DNA of 64,000 nucleotides, from positions 112,498-176,497 of the forward strand of contig CAZHLM010000001.1 of the NCBI GenBank assembly GCA_964533295.1. The letters are read 5' to 3'. Made by a program: the position numbers and the translations under genes. Each line of letters starts with the position of its first letter. The first letter of the stretch is position 1. The DNA comes from an uncultured Verrucomicrobiota bacterium. Its GTDB lineage: Bacteria > Verrucomicrobiota > Verrucomicrobiia > Palsa-1439. This document shows positions 9,794 to 58,055 of this stretch, one piece after another. The notes under the pieces are model-generated. The model saw only the letters and a list, made by a program, of their open reading frames with translations, was not told the DNA's origin and searched no databases.

Positions 9794-9830
9794 CGCCGGA
9801 CTCACCCATGTACAAGGAGCTAGGCTCCCG

Positions 9831-16220: not shown

Positions 16221-16243
16221 ATTCTGAGAGAAAGGCTCATCTT

Positions 16244-18925
<2,682 letters not shown>

Positions 18926-26646: not shown

Positions 26647-26647
26647 G

Positions 26648-28339
<1,692 letters not shown>

Positions 28340-35302: not shown

Positions 35303-35939
35303 CACCTCTCAAGACATTATCAAATTGCGCATTCATCCTGCGCCTTTTGGCGCTTACGGCGGACGTGGGGGCCAAGTACCATCGACAGTCAGAGCGCGCC
35401 TTTGGAGGTGGCCATGTACGTTGTACCGTTGTACCTTTTCCTTTCGCTCCTGCCGATTGCCTGGTTGCTGAGGCGATCACGGAGGCGGCCTGCCGCTGCG
35501 CTGCGCCATGTGACGGTGAGCATGGGCCCGACCTCCAAGAGGGGGTAGCGATGAGCACACTGAACCGCATCCTCCTGGGGTTGGCGCTGCTGACCCTGAT
35601 TGGCGTGGCCGCGCTGGCCGACGGCGCAGTGGGTGGCGGCGCGGTCTATTGGGTCTTGCGTGGACAGTTGCGTCTGCCCTGGCGCCCGCTTTCACGGTGA
35701 ATGGCGCGCCCCTGGCCGTTACTCGCTCTGCCCCCGACACCGGTGCGCGGACTATGGCCCTTGGTTGGGCGCTGGCAGATATCCGCCGAGCGCTGGATTC
35801 TCGGCGCCAGCATGTTTGTACAGCGCTATTTCCTCCCCGACAGTGGGCAGATCCCGGTCAGTGAGGTGAACAGCCTCGCCAAAGCCGCCGGGTTTGAGGT
35901 GCGTGATTCGGTTGCCCTTTTGTCTTACAGGTTGTAAGA

Positions 35940-36180: not shown

Positions 36181-36182
36181 AG

Positions 36183-38708
36183 ATGAAGACGACAGTCATC
36201 TTTCTGGAAGGCATTGAGTCCGTGCTTTCGCCGGCCGGGGTCGAGAAGCAGTTGTGCCGGCATCCCGGCATCCACAAGGTTGAAACGAACTTCATGACGG
36301 GCACGGCCACCGTCTACCATGACGAGTCGGTGCCGCTGGCGGAGATCAAGCGTTACGTGGCCGAATGTGGCTACGCCTGCTCAGGTGAGTGCCTGCCACA
36401 GCACGTGACCCAGCCGGGCGATCCGCCAATGGAAATGGCGCACGCCGGCCATGCGATGCGCGACGCCGGAGCTGGAGAACACGCCAGGCCTGAGATGCGC
36501 GCACATGTCGGGCACGTGATGCCGGCGTCTGAACATGACGCCCATGCCGGCCACGCCATGCCGACGGCGAAAGCGCCCGCCACAGCCGAGGCCCATGCCG
36601 GGCATGAGACACCGGCACTTGCGCCCGGTGCAAGTGTGGCTGCGGCCGGCGAAATGGAAGCTATGGCTCACGAGATGGGCCACGGCGCGGGAATGAGCAT
36701 GGAGGCCATGGTGCGTGACATGCGCAACCGCTTCCTGGTTGCGTTCGTCCTCGCCATCCCCGTCTTCCTGTACTCGCCGCTGTTTACCGACTTTTTCCAG
36801 GTTCAGCTGCCACTTCCATTCGGGCTATCAAATGAAGCGCTGTCGTTTCTGCTCGCCACACCCGCCGTGCTGTACAGCGGCTGGGTCTTCTATATCGGCG
36901 CATGGCGCGGGCTGAAGAATGGGGTACTGAACATGGCCGTGCTGGTCACGCTCTCGGTATTGGCCGGATACATCTTCAGCGTCGCCGCCACGTTCCTGTT
37001 TGAAGGTGAAGTCTTCTACGAGGCCGCGGTGCTGCTGCTGGCCTTTGTGCTCTTCGGCCACTGGATGGAGATGCGCGCCCGCTCCGGCGCGTCGCAGGCC
37101 ATTCAGGCGTTGATGAACCTCGCGCCGCCGAAGGCCACCGTCATCCGCGGCGGGCAGCAGGTCGAAGTTCCGACTTCGGAAGTGCTGCTGGACGACGTCG
37201 TCCTCATCCGACCCGGCGACAAGATCCCGGTGGACGGCGTAGTCATCGAGGGCGAGTCGAGTGTGGACGAGTCCATGCTGACGGGCGAGAGCCTGCCGGT
37301 GAAGAAGGCTGTCGGCTCCAGCGTCGTTGGCGCGACGATCAATAAGACCGGCGCGTTCAAATTCCGCACCACCAAAGTGGGCGCGGATACTGCCCTGGCG
37401 CAGATCGTCAAGCTGGTGCAGGTGGCGCAGAACTCGAAAGCACCCTCGCAGCGGCTGGCGGACCGGGCTGCGCAATGGCTGGTAGCCGCCGCCATCGTCT
37501 TCGGACTGGCGACGTTTTTCGGCTGGTATTTCTTTGGCGGGTCGGCCATCCCGCCGGGAGTGGACAGGACGGTGTGGGCCCTGACGCTCGCCATCACGGT
37601 CGTCGTCATCGCCTGCCCTGATGCGCTCGGGTTGGCCACGCCCACGGCGGTGATGGTGGGCACCGGCCTCGGCGCGCAGAACGGCATCCTGTACAAGAAT
37701 GCCACCGCGCTGGAAGAGGCAGCCAAGTTGCAGGCCATCATCTTCGACAAGACCGGCACGCTCACCGAGGGCAAACCCCAGGTGGTTGAAATCGTGGCAT
37801 CGGGCAACCCGCTCACCGAGGCCGACCTGTTGCGGCTGGTCGCCTCGGCGGAGCAATCATCCGAACACCCGCTGGCCCAGGCCATCGTGGAAAAAGCCAA
37901 GGCGCAAAACGTGAAGCTGGAAGACGCGGGTGGCTTTGAGGCCATCCCCGGCCACGGCATGAAGGCGGTAGTCGCTGGCCGGACTCTGCTGGTAGGCAAC
38001 CGCAAGCTGATGCGTGACAACCAGATCGCACTCAATGAACTGGGAGAGCGCGCCGCCTCCCTGGAAGGCGCGGGGCGCACGGTGGTATATGCCGCTGCGG
38101 ATGGCCAATTCGTCGGGCTCATCGCCATCGCCGACGCGGTGCGGCCCAACGCCCGGCTCGCCGTCGAGAAGCTGACCAGCATGGGCGTACAGGTTGCCAT
38201 GCTCACCGGCGACAATCGTGCCACCGCTGAACGTATCGCGGGCGAGCTCGGTATCCAGACCGTGTTCGCCGAAGTGCTGCCGGGCCAGAAAGCTGACAAG
38301 GTGAAGGAGCTGCAATCGCAGGGGAAGCTGGTGGCGATGGTGGGCGATGGCATCAACGACGCCCCGGCGCTGGCGCAGGCCGACGTGGGCATCGCCATCG
38401 GCGCGGGCACCGACGTGGCGATGGAGACCGCCGACGTGGTGCTGATGAAGTCCGATCCGTTCGACGTGATTGGTGCCATCACGCTCAGCCGGGCGACGTT
38501 GAGCAAGATGCACCAGAATCTGTGGTGGGCAGCGGGTTACAATACCATTGCCTTCCCCATTGCCGCCGGCTTGTTCTACCCGGCCTTCGGGCTGATCCTG
38601 CGCCCCGAAATTGCCGCCATCTCGATGTCGGGTTCGTCTCTGCTGGTAGCGGTCAATGCCTTGATGCTAAAGAACACGAAGCTGGAAGGCATCCGGGCCA
38701 AAGCATAA
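36183..38708 (+). CDS. P1B-type heavy-metal ATPase with cysteine-free HMA-like N-domain, His/Met-rich stretch and CPD TM motif
   Basis: [10 protein letters not shown] ... [20 protein letters not shown] ... [25 protein letters not shown] instead of [26 protein letters not shown] and MSGSS. Confidence 0.85.
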
Positions 38709-46614: not shown

Positions 46615-46812
46615 ATGAATTGCTATACATGCGCCAAAGAAGACAAGACTACCGAGGCGGTCGCCGTGTGTGCGGTATGCGGAATGGCCCTGTGCCTGGA
46701 CCATGTGCATGAGCGCGAAGTGCCGATGGTGCAGCGCACTTCCGGCTGGGCGAGCACAACCGCGATGCACATCCTGTGCGAGCGGTGCGCGAAGCTGGCG
46801 GTCAGCGCCTGA
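46615..46812 (+). CDS. DUF2180-like zinc-ribbon protein
   Basis: MNCYTCAKEDK ... AVCAVCGMALCLDH ... ILCERC; AAGGAGG ribosome-binding site. Confidence 0.45.
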   Translation: MNCYTCAKEDKTTEAVAVCAVCGMALCLDHVHEREVPMVQRTSGWASTTAMHILCERCAKLAVSA

Positions 46813-46898
46813 CGCTCCGGCCGGCCACAGCGGTTAACTGCGCGCCGGGCATGCAGTCTTCCACGCGGCGCCCGGCGCCAATCGAAAGGAGATTGGTT

Positions 46899-47201
46899 AT
46901 GAGACTCCTATCCTTCTGGCCCGTGGCCTGGACGCTGGCGATCTTCGCCGCCGTCGTCTTCACGCTCGATATGCTGCTCGGCGTGCTGTTCCCGAACTGG
47001 TGGGTGATGCAGAAAGCCTGGGAGCTGGTGCTGCCTGGCTTCACCTTCATCAGTTGGGGTGCTTTCTTCCTCGGCCTGGTGGAGAGTTTCATCGGCGGGT
47101 TCCTGACGGCTGTCGGGCTCGTCCTGATCTACAACTTCTTCGCCAGCCGCGAGGCGGCCAAGGCAGCGCCGACGATGACGCCGGCTGGCGAGCATCACTG
47201 A
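46899..47201 (+). CDS. small membrane protein, hypothetical
   Basis: 100 aa, three TM helices. Confidence 0.35.
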   Translation: MRLLSFWPVAWTLAIFAAVVFTLDMLLGVLFPNWWVMQKAWELVLPGFTFISWGAFFLGLVESFIGGFLTAVGLVLIYNFFASREAAKAAPTMTPAGEHH

Positions 47202-47280
47202 ACAGCTCCGCGACAATTGCATAACCCATCTCTGGCGAGTCCGGCATAGCCGGGCTCGCGCTGTTCATTTGGTTGAGGCG

Positions 47281-47973
47281 ATGATTCCTCTGCTGTATGC
47301 ACTCATCACGTCGGCGGCCACACTGGCCGGCGGCGCGCTCCCCATGTATACCCGCCTGCGGCTCGTCGAACAGCGTTACATGGTCGCCTTCGCGGGCGGG
47401 GCGATGGTCGCCATCGCGCTGTTTGACCTGATCCCGGAGATGAAGGCTCACAACGCCGTGGCGCTCATGCTCGGTTTTTTCGCGATCTACCTGCTCGAGA
47501 AACTCGTAATGATCCACGCCTGCGGCGAGGCCGAATGTGAAACGCACGCGATGGGCTGGCCGGCGCTGATCGGCATCGCCACCGAAAGCCTGATAGACGG
47601 GTTGGCGATTGCAGTGGGCTTCGGGGTCGCCCCCTCACTGGGCCTGCTGATCGCTCTGGCAGTATTGGCGCACGAGTTGCCGCGCGGGCTGACGACGACC
47701 GTCATCATGCAGGAGGCAGGCTACAGCCGCCCTCGTGTTTGGGCAGCCCTGCTGGTGGACGCCGGCTTTGCACCGTTGGGCGTGCTGCTCTCCGGCCTGA
47801 TCCCGCCCTCGGTCTTCGAGCCGCTGATCGGCTTCACGGCGGGCGTGTTCCTGTACGTCGGCGCGAGCGACCTGCTGCCGGAGGCCCATCGGCGCTTTAA
47901 TCTCCGCGTAGTACTCGCGACCCTGGCCGGAGGCGGACTCATTCCGGTGCTGGGCAGCGTGCTGGGCCGGTGA
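47281..47973 (+). CDS. ZIP-family divalent metal transporter
   Basis: eight TM helices, LAHELPRGL and His-rich loop (HACGEAECETHAMG); ZupT-like. Confidence 0.7.
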   Translation: MIPLLYALITSAATLAGGALPMYTRLRLVEQRYMVAFAGGAMVAIALFDLIPEMKAHNAVALMLGFFAIYLLEKLVMIHACGEAECETHAMGWPALIGIATESLIDGLAIAVGFGVAPSLGLLIALAVLAHELPRGLTTTVIMQEAGYSRPRVWAALLVDAGFAPLGVLLSGLIPPSVFEPLIGFTAGVFLYVGASDLLPEAHRRFNLRVVLATLAGGGLIPVLGSVLGR

Positions 47974-48155
47974 GGAAAACGTGATGACCTATCTGAATGA
48001 GAACTCCCCAACCCAGGTATCGCGATGACTCACCTGCGCCGTATTCGTTTCCCGTTCATGCCCCTCACCCCGCCACGCCCCGGTGAACGGCTCGTCATCG
48101 ACCTAGAGAAACTGATCAAGGGCGTCCTGTTCCAATGCAGCACGTGCGGCAGCAA

Positions 48156-49470
48156 TCAGAACTGCCCGCCCAACAGCCGAAAGATCAGCAGGCCATTGAG
48201 AAGCAGGATCAGGCCAATGACGACAATGGCAAGCGCCGTGGTTTTGCGGCTGTTGACAAAGCCGCCCATCAATCGGCGGTCGGCGGTGAATATCAACAAC
48301 GGGACAGTCGCAAAAGGTAATTGAAAACTCAGGCTGGCCTGGCTGAGCACGAGGATGTTGAGCGGGTCTAGCCGGAAGGCTACGGCCCAGCACCGCCGGG
48401 ATCATGACCAGCAGCCGATAGATCAAGCGGCGCAGCCAAGGCCTCACCTGCACATGCAGGAAACCTTCCATCACGACCTGACCAGCCAGGGTAGCCGTTG
48501 TCGAGGAGGCGATGCCAGAGGCCAGCAACGCAATCGCAAAGGCAAATCCGGCCATCGTGCCCAGCAAGGGCACGAGCGTCTGGTACGCCTGCTCGAGGGA
48601 AGTCACCTGCAAGCCGTTGCGATAGAAGACCGCCGCGGCCATCACCAGGATCGCCCCGTTGACGAAGAAAGCGCCGTTGGGCGCGATGGCCGAATCGAGC
48701 ACGGCCAATCGGAAAACATTCCGCTTACGTGCGGGCGGGTCTTCCGGCTGCACACGTGAGTGGATCAAACGCGAATGCAGATAGAGGTTATGGGGCATCA
48801 CCGTGGCCCCCAGCATGCCGATGGCCACGTAAATGCTGTCCGAGTTGAGGCGCGGCACCACGGTGCTGTAAGCCAGCGCTCCCCACTCCGGCCGGGACAA
48901 CCAGATTTCTATCACATGAGCCACGCTCACGACCGCAATCAGGCTGAGGATGGCGTATTCCACCTTGCGAAAGCCATAGCGCTGGAGCCCCAGGATCAGA
49001 AATACGTCCAGGCCGGTGATCAGCGTGGCGGTGAGCAGGGGCAGTTTGAAGAGCAGGCTCAAGCCAATCGCCGATCCCAGGAACTCAGCCAGGTCGGTGG
49101 CCATCATGGCGATTTCCGCCGTGAGCCACAGGAAAATCGCCACTGGTTGAGGGAAGCGCTCGCGGCAGAGTTGGGCCAGGTCTTTGCCGGTGGCGATACC
49201 CAATTTCGCCGAGAGGCTCTGCAACAGGATCGCCACCAGATTGCTCAGCAGGAGCACCCAGAGCAGGCTGTAGCTGAAGCGTGCGCCGCCCTCCAAATCC
49301 GTAGCCCAGTTGCCGGGATCCATGTAACCCACGCTGACAATAAAGGCCGGCCCAGAAATGCTAGAATGCGGCGCAGGGTCCGGCCCGCCCCCTCGCGCCG
49401 AATGGCGCCAGCCAAGTCGGTCCAGCCGGGGATCAAGCGCGGCACCCGAGCGAGGGACCCCAATGACCAT
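48156..49470 (-). pseudogene. mntH: NRAMP-family Mn/Fe transporter with a frameshift near the 3' end
   Basis: GYMDPGNWATDLEGG signature; the conserved C-terminus VLSQASLSFQLPFATVPLLIFT is in a different frame (ORF 48156-48350) from the main ORF; shift near 48360-48380. Confidence 0.7.
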
Positions 49471-49756: not shown

Positions 49757-50170
49757 ATGCCCATCAGCCTGACGAAACTCAACTGTCCCAACTGCGGCGC
49801 GCCGCTGGAGTGGGACGGGACGTACGGCAAGCCCATCACCTGCCCGTACTGCGGCGCGCAGTTCATGCCCGGCCCGACCGAGGTGGACGATCTCTGGCTG
49901 TTCACCGACCCCGTGGCCCGCGCGCGCTTTGAGTACAACGGCACGCTGGACAAACTCGAGCACGACATCCGCTACGAAGTGCTGCGCGGCGGGACGTGGA
50001 GCGACCGCGACCGCGAATGCAAACACGAACTCGACCGGCTGGAACGCGACGGCATCATCCGCAAGCTGGCTTCCTTCTGGGCGCTCTCCCCTTTCCCGCC
50101 CATCTATCGCGCCCGGCAGGAGGGCGAACTGACCCTCGGCGGACACCGCTTCCCCTTTCGCAAAGGGTAG
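49757..50170 (+). CDS. uncharacterised family, paralog 1: N-terminal zinc ribbon plus conserved core (WLFTDPVAR ... DIRYEVLRGG ... SPFPPIYRARQEGELTLGG)
   Basis: CPNCG ... CPYCG ribbon; core shared with the two downstream paralogs; ends with TAG. Confidence 0.5.
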   Translation: MPISLTKLNCPNCGAPLEWDGTYGKPITCPYCGAQFMPGPTEVDDLWLFTDPVARARFEYNGTLDKLEHDIRYEVLRGGTWSDRDRECKHELDRLERDGIIRKLASFWALSPFPPIYRARQEGELTLGGHRFPFRKG

Positions 50171-50323
50171 GAGCTCGTCTGGGCCTGCCCGATGACGCGC
50201 GACCGCTTCGAACTCGACGATCCCATCCTCATCGGCGATTTCGCCTCCGAGCGCGTGCAGCGCCTGTGCGGCGAGATGGCCGACGCGATGATGGGCCGGA
50301 TGAAAGGTATGGAGGTCTGACCG

Positions 50324-50805
50324 ATGTCCGATCTGCTCAAAGCACTGTTCGGCATCCCCAATATGTTTCGCGTACTGACACCACCCCTGACGGCCCCGAC
50401 CCTGACCCGAACGACGTCTGGGCATTCACCGACCCGGACGCTCGCGATGAGTACACCCGCCAGGGTCGATTGAAGCGCCTCGAACGCGACATCCACTACG
50501 AGGTCATGCGCGGCGGCCCCTGGCAGCCCGAGGAGCTGGAGTACAAGTCTGAGATCCGCCAGTTGCTGCGCGAAGGCGCCATCGCCGACAAGGGCACCTA
50601 CTGGTTCCGCAGCCCGCACCCCACGATCTACCGCGCCCAGCGCGAGGGCGTGCTCTCGGTGGCCGGGAGAATCTATTGCTTCGGCGTGGGCGACGACCTG
50701 GTCTTTCAATGCCGCATGGAACGCGATGAGGCCGTGGATAACCCAGGCGCCATGTTGTGCGGCAATTGGTCTGATGCAATGAGGGACGTGCGCCGGCGAA
50801 TGTAG
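50324..50805 (+). pseudogene. uncharacterised family, paralog 2; N-terminal frame does not match core frame (frameshift or non-ATG start)
   Basis: ATG at 50324 gives MSDLLKALF (resembles paralog 3 MYDVLRSQL) in frame 2, but the conserved core VWAFTDPDAR ... DIHYEVMRGG ... SPHPTIYRAQREGVLSVAG is in frame 1, which has no ATG after 50170. Confidence 0.4.
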
Positions 50806-51200
50806 TGTGCGCCCGTCACAAGGACGCCACATTAGCGTTCAATGAGCTACACCTTGTACGCGCCAAATGGCGCTTGTGTGCCGGCAGGAGTTGCAGTACC
50901 GTGAAAGTGTAGCCATTGCAGCCTCGACGATGCCCTTCCCTTTACGCGGAACCATCGACAACATTCACGCGGCATAGGTCTGGCGGCGTGGGTGGAGTGG
51001 CTGCCTAAGCCGGACCGAAGGCCAGGGCGAGCCGAACTTTCGCCGCTACCCTACCCTGGTAGGGTCTCTCCCAAAAAACGGCTTCACTGTAGAGCATCGT
51101 CGGCGACGTCAGGGCCTCGACCGGACGGGCCCGAACGCAGTTTGTGTTCGGGCCCGTCCATTATTACCAGTGACAGTGGTCAGAAGACGAGGCGTTCAGG

Positions 51201-51776
51201 ATGTACGACGTCCTCAGGTCCCAACTCAGCGACCAGCTTCGCTTGCCCAGTGACGCCCCGAGCGTGAATTGCGAGCTGAGACGGAACAATCTCTGGCTGT
51301 TTACCGACCCGGTCGCCCGGCACCTTTACGCGAAACGGAAACGGCTGGGCCAGCTGAAGCACGACATTCAGGCCCACGTCATGCGTAATCACTGCTGGGC
51401 CGCTGAAGAGCTGGCGCTTGCGCGTGAGATCCTCCGCCTGGTGCACACCGGCGTGCTTTGGCCCAAGGGCACTTTCGGCTACCTGAGCCCACACCCGCCG
51501 GTATACCGCGCCGTGCGCGAGGACGTGCTGACGATCGACGGTCAGAAATATCACTTCCGCGCCGGTAACGATCTCGTCTTCGTGCCCTGGCTGGCGCGGG
51601 CGTCGTCCCCCGGTCTTTCTGGACCCGTGAAAATTGGTCGATTGCAGACGGTCACGGACCTTTGCCTGTGCTGCGAAGCATTCCCGTTCGTGAGCACACT
51701 CTGCTCAAGAGCCATCGCTCACCTGCAGAAGACAGTCCCCGACAACGCGCTTTCACGCCTCACCCGTCATCCATAA
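51201..51776 (+). CDS. uncharacterised family, paralog 3 with extended Cys-containing C-terminus
   Basis: LWLFTDPVAR ... DIQAHVMRN ... SPHPPVYRAVREDVLTIDG core; C-terminal LCLCCEAFPFVSTLC. Confidence 0.5.
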   Translation: MYDVLRSQLSDQLRLPSDAPSVNCELRRNNLWLFTDPVARHLYAKRKRLGQLKHDIQAHVMRNHCWAAEELALAREILRLVHTGVLWPKGTFGYLSPHPPVYRAVREDVLTIDGQKYHFRAGNDLVFVPWLARASSPGLSGPVKIGRLQTVTDLCLCCEAFPFVSTLCSRAIAHLQKTVPDNALSRLTRHP

Positions 51777-51944
51777 CCAGATCGCCGGAATTGTCCGCGC
51801 ACAATCAGTTGCGCCGATGAGGGAGTCAGTGTAGACTAAAAATCTTACAGCGTGTAAGTTTATGGCGCGCCTGCATTGTCACTATCTTCCGGACGCGTCG
51901 TTCGATTGAAGTAGACGATTTGCACGATCTGCGGAACTGGGGCC

Positions 51945-53807
51945 ATGCCACCGTTCACAATTGTCCCGCTGATTTTGCTTTTCCCGATCCTTGGCCTTCT
52001 CATCAATCTTACTCTTGGCAGCCGGCGAGACGAGAAGTGGATAGGGAGGGTGGCCTGCAGCGCCGTCGCAGCGTCGTTCGCCGTGGCGGTGACGATGCTG
52101 GACACCCTGCTGCGCGAGCCGCAGGGCGGCGAGGTCATGCTCTGGGAGTGGTTGAGGATCGGAACGTTGACCATCCCGGTGACCCTGAAAGTAGACGCGC
52201 TCGCCACGACGATGAGCCTGGTGGTGACCGGCGTCGGAACGCTTATCCACATCTATGCCATCGGGTACATGGGGGGCGATCCCCGCTTCCGGAGCTTCTT
52301 CATCTATCTTAATCTGTTTGTTGCGGCGATGCTGGTGCTGGTGCTGGCCGACAATTATCTGCTGCTCTTCATCGGCTGGGAGCTGGTGGGGCTGTGTTCG
52401 TACTTACTCATCGGTTTCTGGTTCGAGGACCTGAACAACGTGGTGGCGGCGAGAAAAGCGTTCATCGTCAATCGCGTGGGTGATGTCGCTTTTCTGTTGG
52501 GCCTCATTCTGATCTTCTGGACCTTCGATAGCCTGCGTTACGCCGAAGTGTTCTCCAATGCCAAGGCGACATTCCGCGCGGGCGCACCCGTGGTTACGGC
52601 CATCACGTTGCTCCTGTTCATGGGTGTCACGGGAAAGAGCGCCCAGATCCCGCTGTTCATCTGGCTGCCGGATGCGATGGCGGGGCCGACTCCGGTCTCG
52701 GCCCTCATCCATGCGGCCACGATGGTGACCGCTGGGGTGTACCTGATCGCGCGCAGCCAGGCGCTCTTCGACCTGGCGCCACTGACTCAATCCATCATTG
52801 CCTGGACCGGCGGTGTGACCGCACTGTTCGCCGCCACGATCGCCATCGCGCAGTGGGATATGAAGAAGGTGATGGCCTACTCAACCATCAGCCAGCTCGG
52901 CTACATGATCGCCGCAGTTGGGCTGGGCGGCTACATCGCCGGGCTCTTTCACCTGATCATCCATGCCTTCTTCAAGGCGCTGCTCTTTCTAAGCGCAGGT
53001 TCGGTGATGCACGGCTGTGGCAACGAGGGCGACATGCGCCGCCTCGGGGGGTTGCGCCGGGCCATGCCAATCACGTTCGCCACCTTCATCATCGGCGGCC
53101 TGGGGTTGGCAGGCGTGCCGGCCTTCGCCGGCTTCTGGAGCAAAGACGGGATCATCGCCGAAGCGTCCAGGAAGGACATGGGTGTTTTCGTGCTCCTGCT
53201 GGTCGCGACAGGCGTTACGGCCTTCTACATCTTCCGGCAACTATATCTGGTATTTGCGGGTGAACAACGCAGCCGTGCCTATCACCCCCACGAAAGCCCA
53301 CGCGTGATGACGGGGCCGCTCATCGCCCTGGCCATACTGGTCGGCGTTGGCGGGATCGTGAACGCGCCGCCTATCCACCTGCTCACGCGTTTTCTCGGCG
53401 GTGAGGCGCCGCCTTTTGAAATGAACGTTGCGGCGGCCTCAGTGGGGCTCACGGCGGCAAGTTGGGCCGCGGCCTGGGCGCTGTATGGCCGCCGGCCACT
53501 ACTCGCCAGGGAGGCCGATCCGTTGGGGCGTGTCCTCGGCCGGCTGTACAGGGTGCTGGAGCGGAAGTACTTCGTGGATGAACTCTATGGGGTCTGGATT
53601 GTGCGGCCCTATCAAGCCTTGACCCAAGTCTTCGGAGCGCTGGACCGGCGGCTCGTCGACCCGGGCATTGACCGGACGGCGGCTTTGTCGGGTGACCTCG
53701 CCAGGTGGTTGAGCCTGGCGCAGTCCGGCTACGTGCGCCGATATGCACTCTGGTTCGTGTTCGGCGCCGTGCTGGTGCTGGGCTACTTCCTGGTGGCCTC
53801 ACGCTGA
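51945..53807 (+). CDS. nuoL: NuoL/ND5-type antiporter-like subunit
   Basis: about 16 TM helices, WEWL ... LFIGWELVGLCSYLLIGFWF, conserved charged TM residues, long C-terminal helix region. Confidence 0.85.
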   Translation: MPPFTIVPLILLFPILGLLINLTLGSRRDEKWIGRVACSAVAASFAVAVTMLDTLLREPQGGEVMLWEWLRIGTLTIPVTLKVDALATTMSLVVTGVGTLIHIYAIGYMGGDPRFRSFFIYLNLFVAAMLVLVLADNYLLLFIGWELVGLCSYLLIGFWFEDLNNVVAARKAFIVNRVGDVAFLLGLILIFWTFDSLRYAEVFSNAKATFRAGAPVVTAITLLLFMGVTGKSAQIPLFIWLPDAMAGPTPVSALIHAATMVTAGVYLIARSQALFDLAPLTQSIIAWTGGVTALFAATIAIAQWDMKKVMAYSTISQLGYMIAAVGLGGYIAGLFHLIIHAFFKALLFLSAGSVMHGCGNEGDMRRLGGLRRAMPITFATFIIGGLGLAGVPAFAGFWSKDGIIAEASRKDMGVFVLLLVATGVTAFYIFRQLYLVFAGEQRSRAYHPHESPRVMTGPLIALAILVGVGGIVNAPPIHLLTRFLGGEAPPFEMNVAAASVGLTAASWAAAWALYGRRPLLAREADPLGRVLGRLYRVLERKYFVDELYGVWIVRPYQALTQVFGALDRRLVDPGIDRTAALSGDLARWLSLAQSGYVRRYALWFVFGAVLVLGYFLVASR

Positions 53808-53820
53808 TAGGGAACACGAG

Positions 53821-55893
53821 ATGAACCTGCATTCCCTGGTCTGGCTTATCCCGCTCCCTCCTTTTCTGGCCTTCGCGCTCATCATCCTGTTCACCTATCG
53901 CTGGCGGGCATTCAGCCACACGCTGGCCATTGGGATGATGGGCGTCTCGTTTGTGCTCGCTCAGGTTGTCTTCTGGAGCGGCGTGCTCAGCGGGCGGCTG
54001 GCTGAAGAACCGGTCGGCTCATCGTTGGCCTGGCTACCCTTTCGCCAGTTTGAGACCTGGCTTCGCGTTGGGGTGTTGGTGGACCCGCTCGCGGCCGTGA
54101 TGCTCTTCATGGTCACACTGACCTGCCTGCTGATTTTCATCTACAGCACGGAATATATGCGCGGCGACCCGCGCTACAGCCGCTTCTTCGCCTATCTCTC
54201 GCTCTTCGCCACCGGCATGCTCGGCCTGGTGGTCGCGGATAACTTGCTGGCGTTGTTTGTGTTCTGGGAAATCATGGGCCTGTGCTCGTACCTGCTCATC
54301 TGCTTCTGGTTTGAGAAGCCGTCCGCCTGCCGCGCGGCGATGAAAGCATTCATGACCACCCGCATCGGCGACGTGTTGATGCTCCTCGGCATCGTGAATC
54401 TGTACAGCCAGACCGGGCGGCTGGATTTTGAGACACTGTTGAGCTCTTCGACTCTGGCGATGTTGGGCGCGACGCCGTCAGTGATCCAGGGTCTCTCGGT
54501 GGCCGGGCTGGCTGGGCTGCTGATCTTCGCCGGGACGGTCGGCAAATCCGCGCAGTTCCCGCTGCACGTCTGGCTGCCGGATGCCATGGAAGGCCCGACG
54601 CCCGTGAGCGCCATGATCCACGCCGCCACCATGGTCTCGGCCGGTGTCTATCTGGTCATCCGCGTTCTGCCCCTGCTGACGGCCGGGGGAGCACCCCTTC
54701 CGGCGATGGCTCTCATTGGCGGGTTCTCGGCCTTCTTCGCCGCGACCATCGCGCTCGCGCAGGACGATGTCAAGCGCGTGATGGCGTACTCGACCATCAG
54801 CCAGCTCGCATACATGATCGCCGCCCTGGGCGTGGGTGCGTATTTCGCTGCCCTCTTCCACCTGCTGATGCACGCCGTCTTCAAGGCTCTGCTATTCCTT
54901 AGCGCCGGATCGGTCATCCACGGCGTCGAACATGGGGCGCACGTGACGTATCAACATCTGAATCCCCAGGACATGCTCAATATGGGCGGCCTGCGGCGGC
55001 GCATGCCGCGCACGTTCGTCGCGTTCATGGCTGGGGGACTCGCCCTCACGGGAATCCCGCCCTTTGCCGGCTTCTGGAGCAAGGACGCGATTCTCGGTGG
55101 GGCATTTGAAGCTTACCGCGTGTCCGGCGTGGCCTCGTGGGGGTTCTACGTCTGGCTGATGCTTTCGGCCTCGGTCTTCCTGACCGCGCTGTACGCCGGG
55201 CGGCAGATGTTCCTCGTGTTCGGCGGCGAGCCGCGGACTTCGGCAGCCGAACACGCCCACGAGACAGGCTGGGCCATCAGCCTGCCGCTGCTGGTGCTGG
55301 CGGCCTTCGCGGCGCTGGCCGGGTTCGTGGGCGTTCCGGAAGAGTTTGCGGTGCTGGGCCCGCTGCTCGGCCACAACTGGCTGCTGCGGTTTGTGAGCGA
55401 GCACTATGGCGAGGCGCGACTGAGCATTGGCGTGATGGGCTTCTCGGTGGCGCTCTCGTTGACCGGCTGGGGTGTGGCCTGGCTGCTGTACGGACGCCGG
55501 CCGTTGAAAGCCGGACAGCCGGACCCGCTCATCGCTGCGCTCGGCGGCCTCCACACACTGCTCAAGAACAAATACTACGTCGACGAGCTGTATACGGCCG
55601 TCATCGTACAGCCCGTCGTGGCCCTGGCGGGTTGGGTGTCTGACTCGGTTGACCGTGGTGCGATTGATGGACTCCTGCACACCGTCGCGCGCCTCAACCG
55701 GCGGTGGAGCGAGCTCAACCGTTTGTTTGACCGATACATCGTGAACGGGTCCAGTGACCTGCTGGGCGAAGGCGCCAAGCGTTTGGGCCGCGAATTGCGC
55801 CTTATCCAGACGGGACGCGTGCAGCACTATCTGGCCTTCTCACTGCTGATCGTCATCGTGCTGGGCGCCATCCTGCTGGTGCTCGTCCGTTGA
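53821..55893 (+). CDS. nuoL: second NuoL/ND5-type antiporter-like subunit (paralog)
   Basis: LFVFWEIMGLCSYLLICFWF, SAQFPLHVWLPDAMEGPTPVSAMIHAATMV; 690 aa. Confidence 0.85.
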   Translation: MNLHSLVWLIPLPPFLAFALIILFTYRWRAFSHTLAIGMMGVSFVLAQVVFWSGVLSGRLAEEPVGSSLAWLPFRQFETWLRVGVLVDPLAAVMLFMVTLTCLLIFIYSTEYMRGDPRYSRFFAYLSLFATGMLGLVVADNLLALFVFWEIMGLCSYLLICFWFEKPSACRAAMKAFMTTRIGDVLMLLGIVNLYSQTGRLDFETLLSSSTLAMLGATPSVIQGLSVAGLAGLLIFAGTVGKSAQFPLHVWLPDAMEGPTPVSAMIHAATMVSAGVYLVIRVLPLLTAGGAPLPAMALIGGFSAFFAATIALAQDDVKRVMAYSTISQLAYMIAALGVGAYFAALFHLLMHAVFKALLFLSAGSVIHGVEHGAHVTYQHLNPQDMLNMGGLRRRMPRTFVAFMAGGLALTGIPPFAGFWSKDAILGGAFEAYRVSGVASWGFYVWLMLSASVFLTALYAGRQMFLVFGGEPRTSAAEHAHETGWAISLPLLVLAAFAALAGFVGVPEEFAVLGPLLGHNWLLRFVSEHYGEARLSIGVMGFSVALSLTGWGVAWLLYGRRPLKAGQPDPLIAALGGLHTLLKNKYYVDELYTAVIVQPVVALAGWVSDSVDRGAIDGLLHTVARLNRRWSELNRLFDRYIVNGSSDLLGEGAKRLGRELRLIQTGRVQHYLAFSLLIVIVLGAILLVLVR

Positions 55894-55911
55894 TCTGCTC
55901 GGGAGGCCTCA

Positions 55912-57435
55912 ATGACGGACTTCGCCTCCAGTAATCTGCTCAGCCTGATGGTCTTCTCGCCCCTGATCGGCGCAGCCCTCGTCGTGGTGCTGCCCGACGG
56001 CGAGAAGGGTGTTATCCGCTGGATTGCCTTTCTCACCACACTGGTGCCGCTGGGCTTGGCCGGCTGGGCCTGGGCCCGCTTCCAGCCAGGACAGCCGGGT
56101 TACCAGTTCGAGCAGTTTACCCCCTGGTACACCGTGCTCGGGATCAGCTATCACGTAGGCGTGGATGGGATCAGTCTGCCGTTGGTGCTGCTGACAGCGC
56201 TGCTCGCGCCGCTTGCAGCATTGATCTCCTTCAGCATCTCCGAGCGTGTGAAGATGTACTTCGTGCTGTTCCTCGTCCTCGAGACCGCGATGCTAGGCAC
56301 CTTCGTCGCGCTCGACCTGATCATCTTTTTTATCTTCTTTGAGTTCACGCTGCTGCCGATGATGTTCCTGATCATGTTGTGGGGCGGCGAGAACCGTGAC
56401 TATGCCAGCATGAAGTTCATGCTATACACCATGGCCGGCAGCCTGGCGATGCTGCTGGCCTTCCAGGTGATCGGGCTCAACCTGCGCTCCTTTGACCTGG
56501 TGAATGCGGCCCGCGCCTGGCCGGCCTTCGACCGCGGGCTATTCGGCCTGAGTGCGGAGACGGCGAAGGCGATTACCTTCTGGGGCGTCTTCCTCGGCCT
56601 GGCCATCAAAGTTCCCATCTGGCCGTTTCACACCTGGCTGCCCGACGCGCACACCGAGGCCCCTACGGCGGGCAGCATGCTCCTGGCCGGAGTCCTGCTC
56701 AAACTGGGCGGGTATGGTTTCCTGCGCATCCTGCTGCCGCTCTTTCCCGAACAGTCCGCCCGGTTCGCCCCGCTTATCGCGCTGTTGGCATTGGCCGCCA
56801 TTGTATTCGGCGCGCTGGCCGCGCTGGCGCAGACGGACTTCAAGCGGCTGGTGGCGTATTCATCAGTGAATCACATGGGCCTGATCGTGCTCGGGATCGC
56901 CGTCGTGGCCGCCGCCTATGGCCGCCCCGATCTGACTGACTCCGCCGTGGTCTCTGGCAACGGCGCGGTCTTGCAGATGTTCAATCACGGCCTCACCTCG
57001 GCAGCCCTGTTCCTGCTCGTCGGCGTGATATATGAACGCGCGCACACGCGGGACTTGCGCGAATTCGGCGGACTGGGCGTCATCGTCCCGGCGTATGGCG
57101 GCATCCTATTGTTTTCGGCGCTCGCCAGCTTGGGCCTGCCCGGGCTGAACGGGTTCGTGGGTGAATTCCTGCTCTTCCGGGGCGCGTGGCCGGTGTTCAC
57201 CCTCGTCACGGCGCTGGCAACGCTAGGCCTGCTCTTCACGGGCGCCTATTTGTTGTGGATGATCCAGCGGGTGCTGCTCGGCCCGCTGAATCCTCGCCGG
57301 GCACAGCTGGACGAGATCGGCTGGCGTGAGACGCTGGCCGTGACGCCCCTGTTGGCTCTGATGGTGCTCACCGGCCTGTGGCCGAGCTGGATATTGGCGA
57401 CGATTAATGAGACGGTGAGCAGACTGTTCGGGTAA
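55912..57435 (+). CDS. nuoM: NuoM/ND4-type antiporter-like subunit
   Basis: 507 aa, 14 TM helices, WPFHTWLPDAHTEAPTAGSMLLAGV motif; GGGAGG ribosome-binding site. Confidence 0.85.
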   Translation: MTDFASSNLLSLMVFSPLIGAALVVVLPDGEKGVIRWIAFLTTLVPLGLAGWAWARFQPGQPGYQFEQFTPWYTVLGISYHVGVDGISLPLVLLTALLAPLAALISFSISERVKMYFVLFLVLETAMLGTFVALDLIIFFIFFEFTLLPMMFLIMLWGGENRDYASMKFMLYTMAGSLAMLLAFQVIGLNLRSFDLVNAARAWPAFDRGLFGLSAETAKAITFWGVFLGLAIKVPIWPFHTWLPDAHTEAPTAGSMLLAGVLLKLGGYGFLRILLPLFPEQSARFAPLIALLALAAIVFGALAALAQTDFKRLVAYSSVNHMGLIVLGIAVVAAAYGRPDLTDSAVVSGNGAVLQMFNHGLTSAALFLLVGVIYERAHTRDLREFGGLGVIVPAYGGILLFSALASLGLPGLNGFVGEFLLFRGAWPVFTLVTALATLGLLFTGAYLLWMIQRVLLGPLNPRRAQLDEIGWRETLAVTPLLALMVLTGLWPSWILATINETVSRLFG

Positions 57436-57446
57436 TCACAGGCATC

Positions 57447-58055
57447 TCATCGCTTCGTTGCCGTTGCGATGAAGAACATCCCCATCCCGTATTGCCGCAC
57501 TTGTACAGCGCCGAAGCCGCGCCGCAGTTCGTCCGGAGTCTGGCGGCTCATGTCCACCGCGCAGATGCCGGCCAGTGGCTTGAGCCAGCCCGGCACGGCG
57601 TGAACGCGCGCTCCCATCTCCAGCGAGACGAAGCGCCCGCCCGACGCCAGGACGCGTCTGATCTCTTCAATCGCACGTACATCGTTCGGGATGATGTTCA
57701 GCGCGAACGTGCAGATGGCTTTGTCGAACGAGGCCTCCGGAAAGGGCAACTGCGCCGCATCCGCCTCGCGGACTTCGACGTTCTTCCAGCCGTGCCGCGC
57801 AATCCGACGCTGTGCTCTCTCCAGCATCGCCGGGGTCAGGTCCACGCCGACGACCTGGCCTTCATCCCCCACGAGTTCGCGCAGGTGGGCGAAGTTCAGG
57901 CCGGTGCCACAGGCGACCTCCAAGACGCGGTCACCGCGCTGCGCGCCGAGCGCCAACCGGGCTTCGCGCCGGAAGGGCAGTGTCCAGGCGTGGGTCGCGT
58001 CGTAAAAGGGCGCCCACCCGGTGAAAGTCTTGCGAACGGCTTCGACGGTAAACAT
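57447..58055 (-). CDS. class I SAM-dependent methyltransferase
   Basis: VLEVACGTGLN motif I, DKAICTFAL post-I motifs. Confidence 0.7.
   Translation of the reverse strand: MFTVEAVRKTFTGWAPFYDATHAWTLPFRREARLALGAQRGDRVLEVACGTGLNFAHLRELVGDEGQVVGVDLTPAMLERAQRRIARHGWKNVEVREADAAQLPFPEASFDKAICTFALNIIPNDVRAIEEIRRVLASGGRFVSLEMGARVHAVPGWLKPLAGICAVDMSRQTPDELRRGFGAVQVRQYGMGMFFIATATKR

What the first reader, a model, noticed from the sequence alone, without database searches (positions are those of the whole stretch)
51945..57435. Orphan cluster of two NuoL-type and one NuoM-type antiporter-like subunits without other complex I genes
nuoL (620 aa), a second nuoL paralog (690 aa) and nuoM (507 aa) are tightly linked (13-18 nt gaps, good ribosome-binding sites). 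No Q-module, N-module, nuoA/J/K/H/N or Mrp small-subunit genes lie within about 6 kb on either side. The neighbours are the uncharacterised triplet upstream and a methyltransferase downstream. Stand-alone L/M pairs are known in CO2-uptake (NdhF3/D3-CupA, DabAB) and Mrp systems. An L-L-M trio with a novel small-protein family nearby could represent a distinct ion-translocating module.
Basis: partly seen in the sequence, partly recalled or inferred. Interest (0 to 1): 0.6.

Follow-up and report, generated by a model that had tools for sequence, protein, structure and literature searches.

The report
Trimmed accessory complex I pump-subunit cluster
Three intact proton-pump subunits of respiratory complex I (two NuoL, one NuoM) sit alone in a copper/metal-resistance island of a hot-spring Chloroflexota bacterium. 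They are the cut-down version of a recurring, apparently undescribed accessory gene cluster, not a piece of the normal complex I operon.

Summary
L1 (51945-53807, 620 aa), L2 (53821-55893, 690 aa) and M (55912-57435, 507 aa) are genuine NuoL/NuoL/NuoM proteins separated by 13 and 18 nt. No other complex I or Mrp gene lies anywhere in the 64 kb, which is a copper/metal-homeostasis island.

The trio is a trimmed derivative of a larger cluster. A 27-codon relic of a nuoK-like gene lies directly before L1. Related Anaerolineae contigs carry nuoJ-nuoK-L1-(nuoJ')-L2-M. J-K-L1 and J'-L2-M come from two different complex I lineages; L2-M is closest to the Chloroflexota '2M' operon nuoAHJKLM1M2N.

Gene content varies between contigs: IS-truncated M, an L1::L2 chimera, and J or K relics. 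Even so, L1 and L2 keep all proton-transfer residues and are under purifying selection (dN/dS 0.10-0.26).

Lateral-helix lengths fall into two classes: 50 residues (window L1) and 77-80 (L2 and L1 relatives).

My best model (about 45%) is spare distal pump subunits that dock onto a complex I encoded elsewhere. The rivals are a free-standing Mrp-like antiporter module, a decaying relic, and the genome's only L/M copies.

The upstream small proteins recur near the cluster, but two of the three are pseudogenes here. I rate this a new variant of a known kind, of moderate interest.

The parts
51945..53807 (+). L1: NuoL-type antiporter-like subunit, 620 aa, with a lateral helix of canonical length (50 residues from DELY to GYVRRY)
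   Evidence: NF005141 711.5 bits. Aligns end to end with solved NuoL chains 8e9g_L and 4he8_L. E146, K231, H256, H340, K344, K400 and D401 are present. Exact 30-aa gap in the lateral helix relative to the 72%-identical orthologue. dN/dS 0.26 against L095.
53821..55893 (+). L2: second NuoL-type subunit, 690 aa, with an extended '2M-type' lateral helix (77 residues)
   Evidence: NF005141 606.2 bits. 79% identical to L2 of L092 and 57% to the Thermoflexus operon NuoL. Nests in the Chloroflexota 2M NuoL clade. The lateral-helix insertion is visible against 6hum_F. E150, K242, H267, H351, K355, K421 and D422 are present.
55912..57435 (+). M: NuoM-type subunit (M1 type), 507 aa
   Evidence: TIGR01972 542.6 bits. 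57% identical to Thermoflexus NuoM1 and 38% to NuoM2. Aligns over its full length with 8qby_M. E144, K233, K264, H359 and E418 are present.
51854..51934 (+). Relic of the 3' end of a nuoK-like gene (27 codons, with an in-frame stop upstream)
   Evidence: tblastn with the K protein of L092, residues 73-99, 67% identity, E 8e-7. Frame translation. The same relic is present in L095.
51844..51858 (.). Perfect palindrome CTTACAgcgTGTAAG, 87 nt upstream of the L1 ATG; operator-like
   Evidence: An exact second copy lies at 35924-35938. The motif also occurs in L095 (twice) and in L100 upstream of the M50-CBS/P-type ATPase operon.
35924..35938 (.). Second exact copy of the palindrome, upstream of a CBS-domain remnant and the P1B-type ATPase gene 36105-38708
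51201..51776 (+). p191: intact member of a rare small-protein family, with a C-terminal CxCC...C motif
   Evidence: 15 clusters in 5.8 billion proteins. A homologue sits directly upstream of J-K-L1 in L096. dN/dS 0.28 against L095. AF2 model has no PDB fold match.
49757..50320 (+). p137 plus p42: zinc-ribbon plus p-domain gene interrupted by a TAG nonsense codon at 50168-50170 (its homologue is a single 188-aa protein)
   Evidence: The same split gene calls appear in independent assemblies L001-L003 and L103.
50324..50805 (+). p49 plus p111: frameshifted copy of a 172-aa p-domain gene (shift near 50360)
46615..47973 (+). DUF2180 (46615-46812), DUF5676 and ZIP transporter (47344-47973); ZIP and DUF2180 directly precede nuoJ in the intact cluster
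   Evidence: 89% (ZIP) and 75% (DUF2180) identical to the genes flanking J in L092. Pfam hits. Contexts.
48103..49323 (-). Nramp metal transporter, lying between ZIP and the p-genes where relatives have nuoJ-nuoK
   Evidence: Pfam 373 bits. 88% identical to the Nramp next to the p191 homologue in L100.
57447..58055 (-). Class I SAM (UbiE-like) methyltransferase, convergent with M
   Evidence: Pfam and NCBIfam hits. A 63%-identical homologue lies near J-K-L1 in L089, and a methyltransferase follows M-atpE in L106.

Best explanation
L1, L2 and M are accessory paralogues of the distal membrane-arm subunits of respiratory complex I.

Shown:
- They are the trimmed version of a recurrent but unstable accessory cluster, nuoJ-nuoK-L1-(nuoJ')-L2-M, carried by a narrow Anaerolineae (Chloroflexota) lineage inside metal-homeostasis islands.
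- The cluster was assembled from partial copies of two different nuo membrane-arm operons. J-K-L1 comes from one lineage. J'-L2-M comes from the Chloroflexota '2M' operon nuoAHJKLM1M2N-atp.
- In this window J, most of K, and J' have been deleted, and L1's lateral helix is shortened by exactly 30 residues.
- The three large subunits are intact, keep every charged residue of the proton-transfer chain, and are still under purifying selection.

Inferred (mechanism):
- Each protein forms one proton-translocating module. Because the cluster never encodes enough modules to fill the span of its own lateral helices, the proteins most likely act as interchangeable 'spare' distal subunits. They would dock onto the membrane arm of a complex I whose remaining subunits (NuoA, H, J, K, N, M2 and the peripheral arm) are encoded elsewhere, much as cyanobacteria swap NdhD/NdhF isoforms.
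- L2 (long helix) together with M would fit a four-pump '2M' arm. L1 (canonical helix) would fit a three-pump arm.
- Expression is probably tied to the metal-stress regulon, because the same perfect palindrome precedes both L1 and a heavy-metal P-type ATPase operon.
For: Family identity and intact catalytic residues:
-.
- Motifs are conserved in 22-23 of 23 L1-clade and 18 of 18 L2-clade proteins.

Trimmed from a larger cluster:
- K relic at 51854-51934.
- L092 carries ZIP-DUF2180-J-K-L1-J'-L2-M.
- L105 carries the same order with an extra ZIP gene between J' and L2.
- L106 carries J-K-L1(620 aa, short helix)-L2-M-atpE-methyltransferase.
- L104 carries a J relic followed by L2-M.
- L085, L087, L089, L093, L096 and L099 carry J-K-L1.

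Two evolutionary sources:
- In a neighbour-joining tree L2 nests among the 2M operon NuoL proteins next to Thermoflexus, while L1 groups with a different Anaerolineae NuoL set.
- J' is 51% identical to Thermoflexus NuoJ; J is only 27% identical.
- The atpE after M in L106 is 83% identical to the atpE downstream of a canonical 2M operon (locus L012).

Individually dispensable, hence accessory:
- M is truncated in L092, L105 and L090, by IS elements in L105 and L090.
- P0024 is an L1::L2 chimera.
- J/K are lost in the window and in L095.
- K of L087 lacks 8 residues including the TM2 Glu.

Still selected:
- dN/dS between L092 and L105: L1 0.105, L2 0.12, J 0.18, K 0.15, J' 0.17, against ZIP 0.05.
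- L1 of the window against L095, both lacking J-K: 0.26, with 26 nonsynonymous and 33 synonymous differences.
- Over 5.4 kb of L1-L2-M there is no disruption, against two disruptions in about 1.1 kb of the p-genes.

Lateral helices:
- Lengths fall into two classes only, 50-51 and 77-80 residues. They differ by about the ~26-residue insertion reported for NuoL of 2M complex I (PMC9040806), and L2's nearest relatives sit in 2M operons.
- The clusters encode at most one M, so the modules the helices would span must come from elsewhere. This is inference.

Shared operator-like palindrome.
Against: - The rest of the source genome could not be examined, so the presence of a canonical nuo operon supplying A/H/J/K/N/M2 and the peripheral arm is assumed, not shown.
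- No expression or assembly data exist.
- The genes sit among metal transporters; ZIP is interleaved with the cluster in L105. That context fits a transport function better than a respiratory one.
- J+K+L+M is exactly the set of complex I homologues of MrpA-N, MrpA-C, MrpC and MrpD (PMC9568556), which suits a free-standing antiporter module.
- Frequent erosion of J, K, J' and M, and the somewhat raised dN/dS in the window lineage (0.26 against 0.105), are compatible with slow decay.
- Having two NuoL isoforms with different helix lengths in one operon has no characterised precedent.
Confidence: 0.45

Rival explanations
1. Free-standing, redox-independent antiporter module. The cluster (J, K, L1, L2, M; here L1-L2-M) would assemble by itself into an Mrp-like secondary transporter. 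It would use the proton-motive force to move H+ against Na+/K+ or another cation, as part of the metal and ion-homeostasis island.
For: - J+K+L+M are the complex I counterparts of MrpA C-terminal domain, MrpC, MrpA N-terminal domain and MrpD (PMC9568556).
- NuoA and NuoH, the subunits that couple the arm to the quinone site, are never present in the cluster.
- The cluster is tightly adjacent to ZIP and DUF2180, and a ZIP gene lies between J' and L2 in L105.
- The whole window is a transporter-rich copper island.
- The palindrome is shared with a P-type ATPase operon.
- All proton-path residues are conserved.
Against: - There are no MrpB/E/F/G equivalents, and the MrpA models score 270-320 bits against cutoffs of 937-1117.
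- Composition varies from J-K-L1 alone to L2-M alone to L1-L2-M, which is unlike an obligate complex.
- Lateral helices keep complex I lengths that would span two or three modules the cluster does not encode.
- The window copy lacks J/K altogether.
Confidence: 0.25
2. Decaying relic. The cluster would be a segmental duplicate or horizontally acquired fragment of nuo operons that no longer has a function in this lineage. L1, L2 and M would simply not yet have been hit by disruptive mutations.
For: - In the window: K relic, loss of J and J', a 30-aa deletion in L1, and two adjacent pseudogenes.
- In relatives: IS insertions and truncations of M, a chimeric L, a J' fragment and a K with an internal deletion.
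- An IS256-type transposase lies in the window.
- dN/dS of L1 is higher in the J/K-less lineage (0.26) than between J/K-bearing relatives (0.105).
Against: - 5.4 kb of uninterrupted reading frames in a region where 1.1 kb of neighbouring genes carries two disruptions.
- dN/dS is well below 1 after the J/K loss, which is shared with L095.
- All catalytic residues are retained.
- The same L1(short helix)-L2-M arrangement is intact in the distantly related L106, at 64-70% identity.
- The 30-aa deletion is in frame and restores a canonical helix length.
Confidence: 0.15
3. Split canonical operon. L2 and M (and perhaps L1) would be the organism's only NuoL/NuoM1, relocated away from nuoAHJK...M2N, which would lie outside the window.
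For: - Chloroflexota already split nuo genes: nuoBCDI are separate from the membrane-arm operon (PMC7117926; L008).
- L2 and M branch where orthologues of a Thermoflexus relative would be expected.
- The genome outside the window was not seen.
Against: - Two NuoL genes and, in relatives, two NuoJ genes sit in one cluster.
- In six loci the L2 clade is never inside an AHJKLMMN operon.
- M is truncated in three lineages while L1, L2, J, K and J' stay under purifying selection. J/K are deleted here. Each gene is therefore dispensable somewhere.
- All 80 related genome loci and L107/108 keep L-M1-M2-N contiguous.
Confidence: 0.1

Closest known systems
'2M' complex I of Nitrospira and Chloroflexi (nuoL-M1-M2-N, with a NuoL lateral-helix insertion; Chadwick et al. 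2018 as cited in PMC9040806 and PMC7117926)
   Same: L2 and M are the closest relatives of NuoL and NuoM1 of these operons: 50-58% and 55-61% identity, and they fall in the same tree clade. L2 carries the extended lateral helix, and so do L1's orthologues.
   Different: There is no second nuoM, no nuoN and no nuoA/H/J/K. Two NuoL genes lie in tandem, and one of them has the insertion precisely removed. The location is a metal island rather than next to the atp operon.
Cyanobacterial NDH-1 isoforms (multiple NdhD/NdhF paralogues such as NdhF3/NdhD3/CupA, encoded away from the core ndh genes)
   Same: Stand-alone L/M-type gene pairs encoded apart from the core enzyme, proposed here to swap into a common core. 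L2's best solved match is NdhF1 (6hum_F).
   Different: The TIGR01960 NdhF3 score is 281-285 bits against a cutoff of 588.7. There is no CupA/CupS-like partner. Here J and K paralogues are also duplicated. The phylum and the genomic context (metal homeostasis) are different.
Mrp (Mnh/Pha) multisubunit cation/proton antiporter
   Same: It is built from the same module families: MrpA-N resembles NuoL, MrpD resembles NuoM/N, MrpC resembles NuoK, and MrpA-C resembles NuoJ. It is redox-independent.
   Different: There is no MrpB/E/F/G and no fused MrpA C-terminal domain. Sequences are clearly NuoL/NuoM rather than MrpA/MrpD. The window copy has no K- or J-type subunit.
DAB (DabB-DabA) vectorial CO2 hydration complex
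   Same: A PF00361 antiporter-like subunit used outside complex I.
   Different: No DabA (DUF2309) gene is present. DabB is a single subunit without a NuoL-type lateral helix partner set.

Membership tests
Complex I subunit NuoL | Sequence reaches the curated equivalog cutoff (NF005141, 556 bits) | tested here: met
   L1 scores 711.5 bits and L2 scores 606.2 bits.
Complex I subunit NuoL | Conserved charged chain (TM5 Glu, TM7 Lys, TM8 His, TM11 His/Lys, TM12 Lys-Asp) | tested here: met
   L1 has E146/K231/H256/H340/K344/K400/D401 and L2 has E150/K242/H267/H351/K355/K421/D422. Assignment of residues to helices follows E. coli numbering recalled from the literature.
Complex I subunit NuoL | C-terminal lateral helix plus terminal TM anchor | tested here: met
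   L1 aligns to the end of solved NuoL chains. The DELY-to-GYxRxY distance is 50 residues in L1 and 77 in L2.
Complex I subunit NuoL / NuoM | Encoded together with other nuo genes (A, H, J, K, N, or the Q/N-module) | tested here: not met
   None in the 64 kb. Only a 27-codon nuoK relic is present.
Complex I subunit NuoL / NuoM | Physically part of an NADH:quinone oxidoreductase | not testable with these tools
   Needs proteomics or structure work, and the rest of the genome.
Complex I subunit NuoM | Sequence cutoff and the E/K/K/E residues | tested here: met
   TIGR01972 542.6 bits against a cutoff of 263.8; the equivalog models are not reached (470 against 585). E144/K233/K264/E418 are present. 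Full-length alignment to 8qby_M.
2M-type complex I | Insertion of about 26 aa in the NuoL lateral helix | tested here: met
   L2 has 77 residues against the canonical 50-51. L1 of the window lacks the insertion, while its orthologues have 80.
2M-type complex I | Second nuoM between nuoM1 and nuoN (nuoLM1M2N) | tested here: not met
   There is only one M, of M1 type, and no N.
Mrp antiporter | MrpA with a C-terminal domain, plus MrpB, C, D, E, F and G | tested here: not met
   The best MrpA models score 270-320 bits against cutoffs of 937-1117. No small Mrp subunit families appear in the Pfam scans.
DAB / cyanobacterial CO2-uptake NDH-1 | DabA (DUF2309) or CupA partner; NdhF3-family score | tested here: not met
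   No such Pfam family is in the window. TIGR01960 scores 281-285 bits against a cutoff of 588.7.
Accessory Anaerolineae nuoJ-K-L1-(J')-L2-M cluster (defined in this work) | L1 in the L1 clade and L2 in the L2 clade, adjacent to each other | tested here: met
   The L1 clade is 64-72% identical, followed by a gap to 55%. The L2 clade is 66-80% identical, followed by a gap to 61%. The two clades share contigs.
Accessory Anaerolineae nuoJ-K-L1-(J')-L2-M cluster (defined in this work) | nuoJ- and nuoK-like genes directly upstream of L1 | tested here: not met
   They are deleted; only the K relic at 51854-51934 remains. L095 is in the same state.

The most novel reading that the evidence does not exclude
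The tandem NuoL paralogues differ in lateral-helix length by almost exactly one pump-module width (50 against 77 residues). They could let the cell assemble complex I membrane arms with three or four proton pumps on demand. That would be a variable H+/e- 'gearbox', switched on together with copper/metal-stress genes through a shared operator. Alternatively, the J-K-L-L-M set could be a previously unrecognised minimal antiporter module derived from complex I and dedicated to metal-stress ion homeostasis.
Probability: 0.2. Interest if true: 0.75.

Novelty: new variant of a known kind. Interest (0 to 1): 0.5.

Why it matters
Complex I stoichiometry is usually treated as fixed by one operon. This locus suggests otherwise.

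- **A mobile, reshuffled kit of distal pump subunits.** A natural set of J, K, two L and M paralogues is reshuffled between lineages, and lateral helices are lengthened or shortened by one module. That would show how pump number evolves, and perhaps how it is regulated.
- **Natural deletion and chimera variants.** The L1::L2 fusion, the precise 30-residue helix deletion and the loss of J' are ready-made tests of the 'lateral helix as clamp' idea.
- **If free-standing instead.** The set would be the smallest known antiporter module related to Mrp and complex I.
- **A caution for annotation.** Copies annotated 'NuoL/NuoM' in metal islands of Chloroflexota MAGs should not be counted as evidence for, or as part of, a canonical complex I.

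Tried and rejected
**Searches that fell short**
- The genome-contig scan with L2 returned only canonical 2M operons at 58% identity or less.
- The metagenome scan with L1 gave only 7 loci.
- The P0161 look-up was a gamble to find the source organism's main operon. It returned a canonical nuoAHJKLM1(HepT/MNT)M2N-atp operon, but from other samples. It serves as a reference only.
- The 246-kb NCBI contig that carries the identical proteins could not be retrieved beyond the 10-kb flanks.
- Rfam gave no hits in the window.
- The promoter and terminator scan was no better than shuffled sequence.
- Foldseek against the PDB with the p191 model gave no match with E below 0.78.
- Four literature searches and a survey preprint turned up no description of a nuoJ-K-L(-L-M) accessory cluster. 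This is absence in an open-access subset only.

**Ideas rejected**
- CO2-uptake roles of the NdhF3/D3-CupA or DabAB type were rejected on scores and on the missing partners.
- A hydrogenase (Hyf/Mbh) association was rejected because no hydrogenase genes are present.
- A strict link between the long L1 helix and the presence of J' was rejected. L087 and L093 have the long helix without J'.
- The small-protein triplet as a dedicated partner was rejected. Two of the three copies are pseudogenes here, and the family also occurs without nuo genes.

Full report
**1. The observation**

The three ORFs are present as described.
- L1 (51945-53807, 620 aa) and L2 exceed the curated NCBIfam equivalog cutoff for NuoL, with 711.5 and 606.2 bits against 556.
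- L2's real start is 53821, which gives 690 aa.
- M (55912-57435, 507 aa) scores 542.6 bits on TIGR01972 NuoM, cutoff 263.8. Pfam shows Proton_antipo_N plus Proton_antipo_M for both L proteins.
- The gaps are 13 and 18 nt. A clear GGGAGG ribosome-binding site precedes M; the sites before L1 and L2 are weaker.
- L1 aligns end to end with solved NuoL chains (8e9g_L, 4he8_L). L2 aligns best with cyanobacterial NdhF1 (6hum_F). M aligns with Paracoccus NuoM (8qby_M).

No other complex I gene lies anywhere in the 64 kb.
- tblastn with NuoA/H/J/K/N from a Thermoflexus operon finds only the three genes.
- Pfam scans of about 70 ORFs show no Q-module, N-module, Mrp small-subunit, DabA or CupA family.

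**2. The setting**

The window is a copper/metal-homeostasis island. It contains:
- a CsoR-type repressor, DUF305 and DUF326;
- three P1B-type ATPases with HMA domains;
- a multicopper oxidase, a cupredoxin, and YHS and HMA proteins;
- a two-component system and MgtC;
- ZIP and Nramp transporters;
- UbiB/ABC1 plus an FAD monooxygenase;
- an IS256-type transposase;
- downstream, an ABC-2/HlyD exporter.

The identical locus occurs in hot-spring metagenome assemblies: JGI 3300007072 and 3300022554, and Logan SRR10095373/4. The nearest named relatives are Anaerolineae and Thermoflexus MAGs. I therefore infer that the organism is a Chloroflexota of the class Anaerolineae.

**3. The trio is a trimmed copy of a larger cluster**

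L1's closest relatives form a discrete clade: 64-72% identity, about 650 aa, and then a drop to 55%. In their contigs L1 is always preceded by nuoJ-like (about 168 aa) and nuoK-like (about 100 aa) genes.

| Locus | Gene order |
|---|---|
| L085/86 | J-K-L1-J' |
| L087/88 | J-K-L1 |
| L089 | J-K-L1-J' fragment |
| L090/91/94 | ZIP-DUF2180-J-K-L-M fragment-IS91 |
| L092 | ZIP-DUF2180-J-K-L1-J'-L2-M |
| L093, L096, L099 | J-K-L1 |

L2 has its own discrete clade: 66-80% identity, then a drop to 61%. It shares contigs with the L1 clade.

| Locus | Gene order |
|---|---|
| L105 | ZIP-DUF2180-J-K-L1-J'-ZIP-L2-M(truncated) |
| L106 | M50/CBS-J-K-L1(620 aa)-L2-M-atpE-methyltransferase |
| L104 | p-genes-M50/CBS-J relic-L2-M |

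In the window, tblastn with the L092 proteins finds no J or J'. It does find a 27-codon remnant of the 3' end of K at 51854-51934, abutting the L1 start, with an in-frame stop upstream.

L095 is a contig whose L1 is 93% identical. It has the same K relic and the same p191-L1 junction. The loss of J and K therefore predates the split of these two lineages.

**4. Two evolutionary sources**

- In a neighbour-joining tree, L2 (window and L092) nests inside the Chloroflexota NuoL clade whose genes lie in nuoA-H-J-K-L-M1-M2-N operons, next to Thermoflexus. L1 groups with a different set of Anaerolineae NuoL proteins.
- J' is 51% identical to Thermoflexus NuoJ, whereas J is only 27% identical. M is 57% identical to NuoM1 and 38% to NuoM2.
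- In the 80 related genome loci the order L-M-M-N is the rule for Chloroflexota, Acidobacteriota and Verrucomicrobiota. L008 and L107/108 show the complete membrane-arm operon followed by atp genes. This is the published '2M' arrangement (PMC7117926; PMC9040806).
- The orphan atpE after M in L106 is 83% identical to the atpE downstream of one such operon (locus L012).

I infer from this that the J'-L2-M part descends from a copy of a main nuo-atp locus that suffered internal deletions.

**5. Lateral helices**

The distance from the DELY motif to the GYxRxY motif falls into two classes.
- It is 50 residues in window L1 and 51 in the L1 of L106 (P0023). This is the canonical class; L1 aligns to the end of solved NuoL chains.
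- It is 80 in all other L1-clade members.
- It is 77 in L2 and the L2 clade.

The difference of 27-30 residues is close to the ~26-residue insertion reported for NuoL of 2M complexes and proposed to accommodate an extra pump subunit.

Window L1 differs from its 72%-identical orthologue by one exact, in-frame 30-residue gap at this point. The nearest outgroups of the L1 clade carry a homologous insertion with the motif RFLHDFxHD, so the window's short state is probably a secondary deletion.

The short helix is seen only where L1 is followed directly by L2-M without J' (the window and L106; n=2). The long helix occurs both with J' (L092, L105, L085, L089) and without it (L087, L093). A strict coupling between J' and helix length is therefore not supported.

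**6. Functional state**

- Every residue of the canonical proton-transfer chain is present in L1, L2 and M. The motifs are conserved in 22-23 of 23 L1-clade proteins and 18 of 18 L2-clade proteins.
- Between L092 and L105, dN/dS is 0.105 (L1), 0.12 (L2), 0.18 (J), 0.15 (K), 0.17 (J') and 0.20 (N-terminal part of M), against 0.05 for the adjacent ZIP gene.
- Between the window and L095, both lacking J/K, L1 has dN/dS 0.26, with 26 nonsynonymous and 33 synonymous differences. Selection is relaxed but clearly purifying.

The cluster is nevertheless unstable.
- M is cut short at about residues 178-215 in L090, L092 and L105. It is followed by IS91 genes in L090 and by a transposase-like reverse ORF (judged by eye from its sequence, not scanned) in L105; in L092 the contig ends.
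- P0024 is an L1::L2 chimera that removes J'.
- L089 has only a J' fragment.
- K of L087 lacks 8 residues, including the TM2 Glu.
- J' has Gly where NuoJ has a conserved Tyr.

Each gene is thus dispensable in some lineage. That argues against these being the sole copies of essential complex I subunits.

**7. The small proteins**

The three upstream genes share a domain of about 100 residues.
- Relative to the intact homologues in L085 (188 and 172 aa), the first window gene carries a TAG nonsense codon at 50168-50170, and the second is frameshifted near 50360. The same split gene calls appear in independent assemblies.
- p191 is intact, with dN/dS 0.28.

Homologues lie near the cluster in L085/86, L096, L095 and L104. 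A p191 homologue also sits beside Nramp in L100 with no nuo genes.

The family is rare.
- It has 15 clusters among 5.8 billion proteins.
- It has about 90 representatives among 1.8 billion.
- In some proteins the domain is fused to Ser/Thr kinase or VWA domains.
- An AlphaFold2 model (pLDDT 68 overall; 72-89 in the core) has no PDB fold match.
- The proteins have a zinc ribbon, Met-rich tails and a CxCC...C motif. By eye this suggests metal binding; I did not test it.

I regard these proteins as components of the metal island, not as demonstrated partners of the pump subunits.

**8. Regulation hint**

A perfect palindrome, CTTACA-N3-TGTAAG, occurs exactly twice in the window.
- One copy lies 87 nt upstream of L1 (51844-51858).
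- The other lies upstream of a CBS-domain remnant and the P-type ATPase at 36105 (35924-35938).

About 0.3 matches are expected by chance even when two mismatches are allowed. The motif also precedes L1 and lies at a second site about 5 kb upstream in L095, and it precedes the M50-CBS/ATPase operon in L100. It is absent from the loci that retain J-K.

I infer that the rearrangement which removed J-K placed L1-L2-M behind an operator of the metal regulon.

**9. Explanations**

*Best, about 45%: accessory isoforms that dock on a complex I encoded elsewhere.*
- The genes are individually dispensable yet selected.
- They are unmistakably NuoL/NuoM rather than MrpA/D.
- Their lateral helices keep the two discrete lengths of three-pump and four-pump complex I, although the cluster never encodes the modules that would lie under those helices.
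- The duplicated partners are M1, which is L's direct neighbour, and J/K, which lie at the proximal end where, as I recall from published structures, the helix anchor sits.

*Rival, about 25%: a free-standing Mrp-like antiporter module.*
- J+K+L+M is exactly the homologue set of MrpA-C, MrpC, MrpA-N and MrpD (PMC9568556).
- NuoA and NuoH are never included.
- The context is transporters.
- Against it: MrpB/E/F/G are missing, composition varies, and the window copy has no J/K.

*Rival, about 15%: a decaying relic.*

*Rival, about 10%: the sole L/M copies of a split operon.*

The rest of the genome could not be inspected, which is the main limitation.

**10. Novelty**

The parts are known families, and accessory L/M paralogues are known in cyanobacteria. 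Within the searchable literature I could not find any description of the following:
- a recurrent nuoJ-K-L-(J')-L-M accessory cluster in Anaerolineae metal islands;
- tandem NuoL paralogues that differ by one lateral-helix module;
- the natural chimeras and precise helix deletions.

I rate this a new variant of a known kind, with interest about 0.5.

Noticed in passing
window 49757-51776; loci L085 7182-8270, L104 7538-8629, L096 375-944, L100 10001-10570: A rare domain family of about 100 residues, with conserved W..TDP.A...L..D...W...SPHP.YRA. There are about 90 representatives among 1.8 billion proteins. It occurs as small proteins with a zinc ribbon, Met-rich tails or a CxCC..C motif, and is elsewhere fused to Ser/Thr kinase or VWA domains. 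The AF2 model has no PDB fold match.
   Followed up: partly
window 35924-35938 and 51844-51858; L095 764-778 and 5746-5760; L100 2195-2209: A perfect palindrome, CTTACA-N3-TGTAAG. In the window it lies upstream of a heavy-metal P-type ATPase operon and upstream of L1; in L100 it lies upstream of the M50-CBS/ATPase operon; in L095 it lies upstream of L1 and at a second site about 5 kb upstream. It is a candidate operator of an unidentified metal-responsive regulator and loosely resembles the TACAnnTGTA 'cop box' (recalled from memory, not tested).
   Followed up: partly
window 1-48000: The whole window is a copper/metal island. It holds a CsoR-type repressor (807-1085), DUF305, DUF326, three P1B ATPases (7076-9793, 16196-18925, 36105-38708), a multicopper oxidase (9726-10955), a cupredoxin, YHS/HMA proteins, DUF2933, MgtC, and an adenylate cyclase with a YHS domain (20358-21023).
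   Followed up: partly
window 35940-36104: The sequence just upstream of the ATPase gene reads like the C-terminal part of a CBS-domain protein ([24 protein letters not shown]). In relatives (L085, L100, L104) an intact M50-CBS peptidase gene occupies this position, so this looks like another truncated gene.
   Followed up: no
window 34004-35269 (-): A Mutator/IS256-family transposase lies inside the island. This fits the rearrangements seen around it.
   Followed up: no
window 25423-28339 and 23825-24436, 57447-58055; L104 604-3472: Quinone-biosynthesis-like genes (UbiB/ABC1 kinase, a UbiH-like FAD monooxygenase, UbiE-like methyltransferases) recur near the pump-subunit cluster, both in the window and in L104. 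A possible link to quinone chemistry was not examined.
   Followed up: no
L090/L094 10001-12010 (protein P0024): A natural chimera. The N-terminal part is L1-like and the C-terminal part, including the lateral helix, is L2-like. J' is deleted. A truncated M and IS91-family genes follow.
   Followed up: partly
L107/L108 13646-14288: A HepT/MNT (nucleotidyltransferase) toxin-antitoxin pair is inserted between nuoM1 and nuoM2 of an otherwise canonical 2M complex I operon.
   Followed up: no
L106 7156-7392: An orphan F-type ATPase c-subunit gene (atpE) sits directly after M in the accessory cluster. It is 83% identical to the atpE downstream of a canonical 2M operon (L012), which suggests the cluster arose from a nuo-atp segment with internal deletions.
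   Followed up: partly
L087 9718-9996; L092 11964-12464: The nuoK-like gene of L087 lacks 8 residues, including the conserved TM2 glutamate. All J' proteins have Gly in place of the conserved Tyr of the NuoJ TM3 motif (IYxGAI becomes LGIGAI).
   Followed up: no
window L1 versus p191, compared with L095: Synonymous divergence between the window and L095 is four times lower for L1 (dS 0.14) than for the adjacent p191 gene (dS 0.55). This hints at recent recombination or transfer of the L1 segment, or at strong codon constraints.
   Followed up: no
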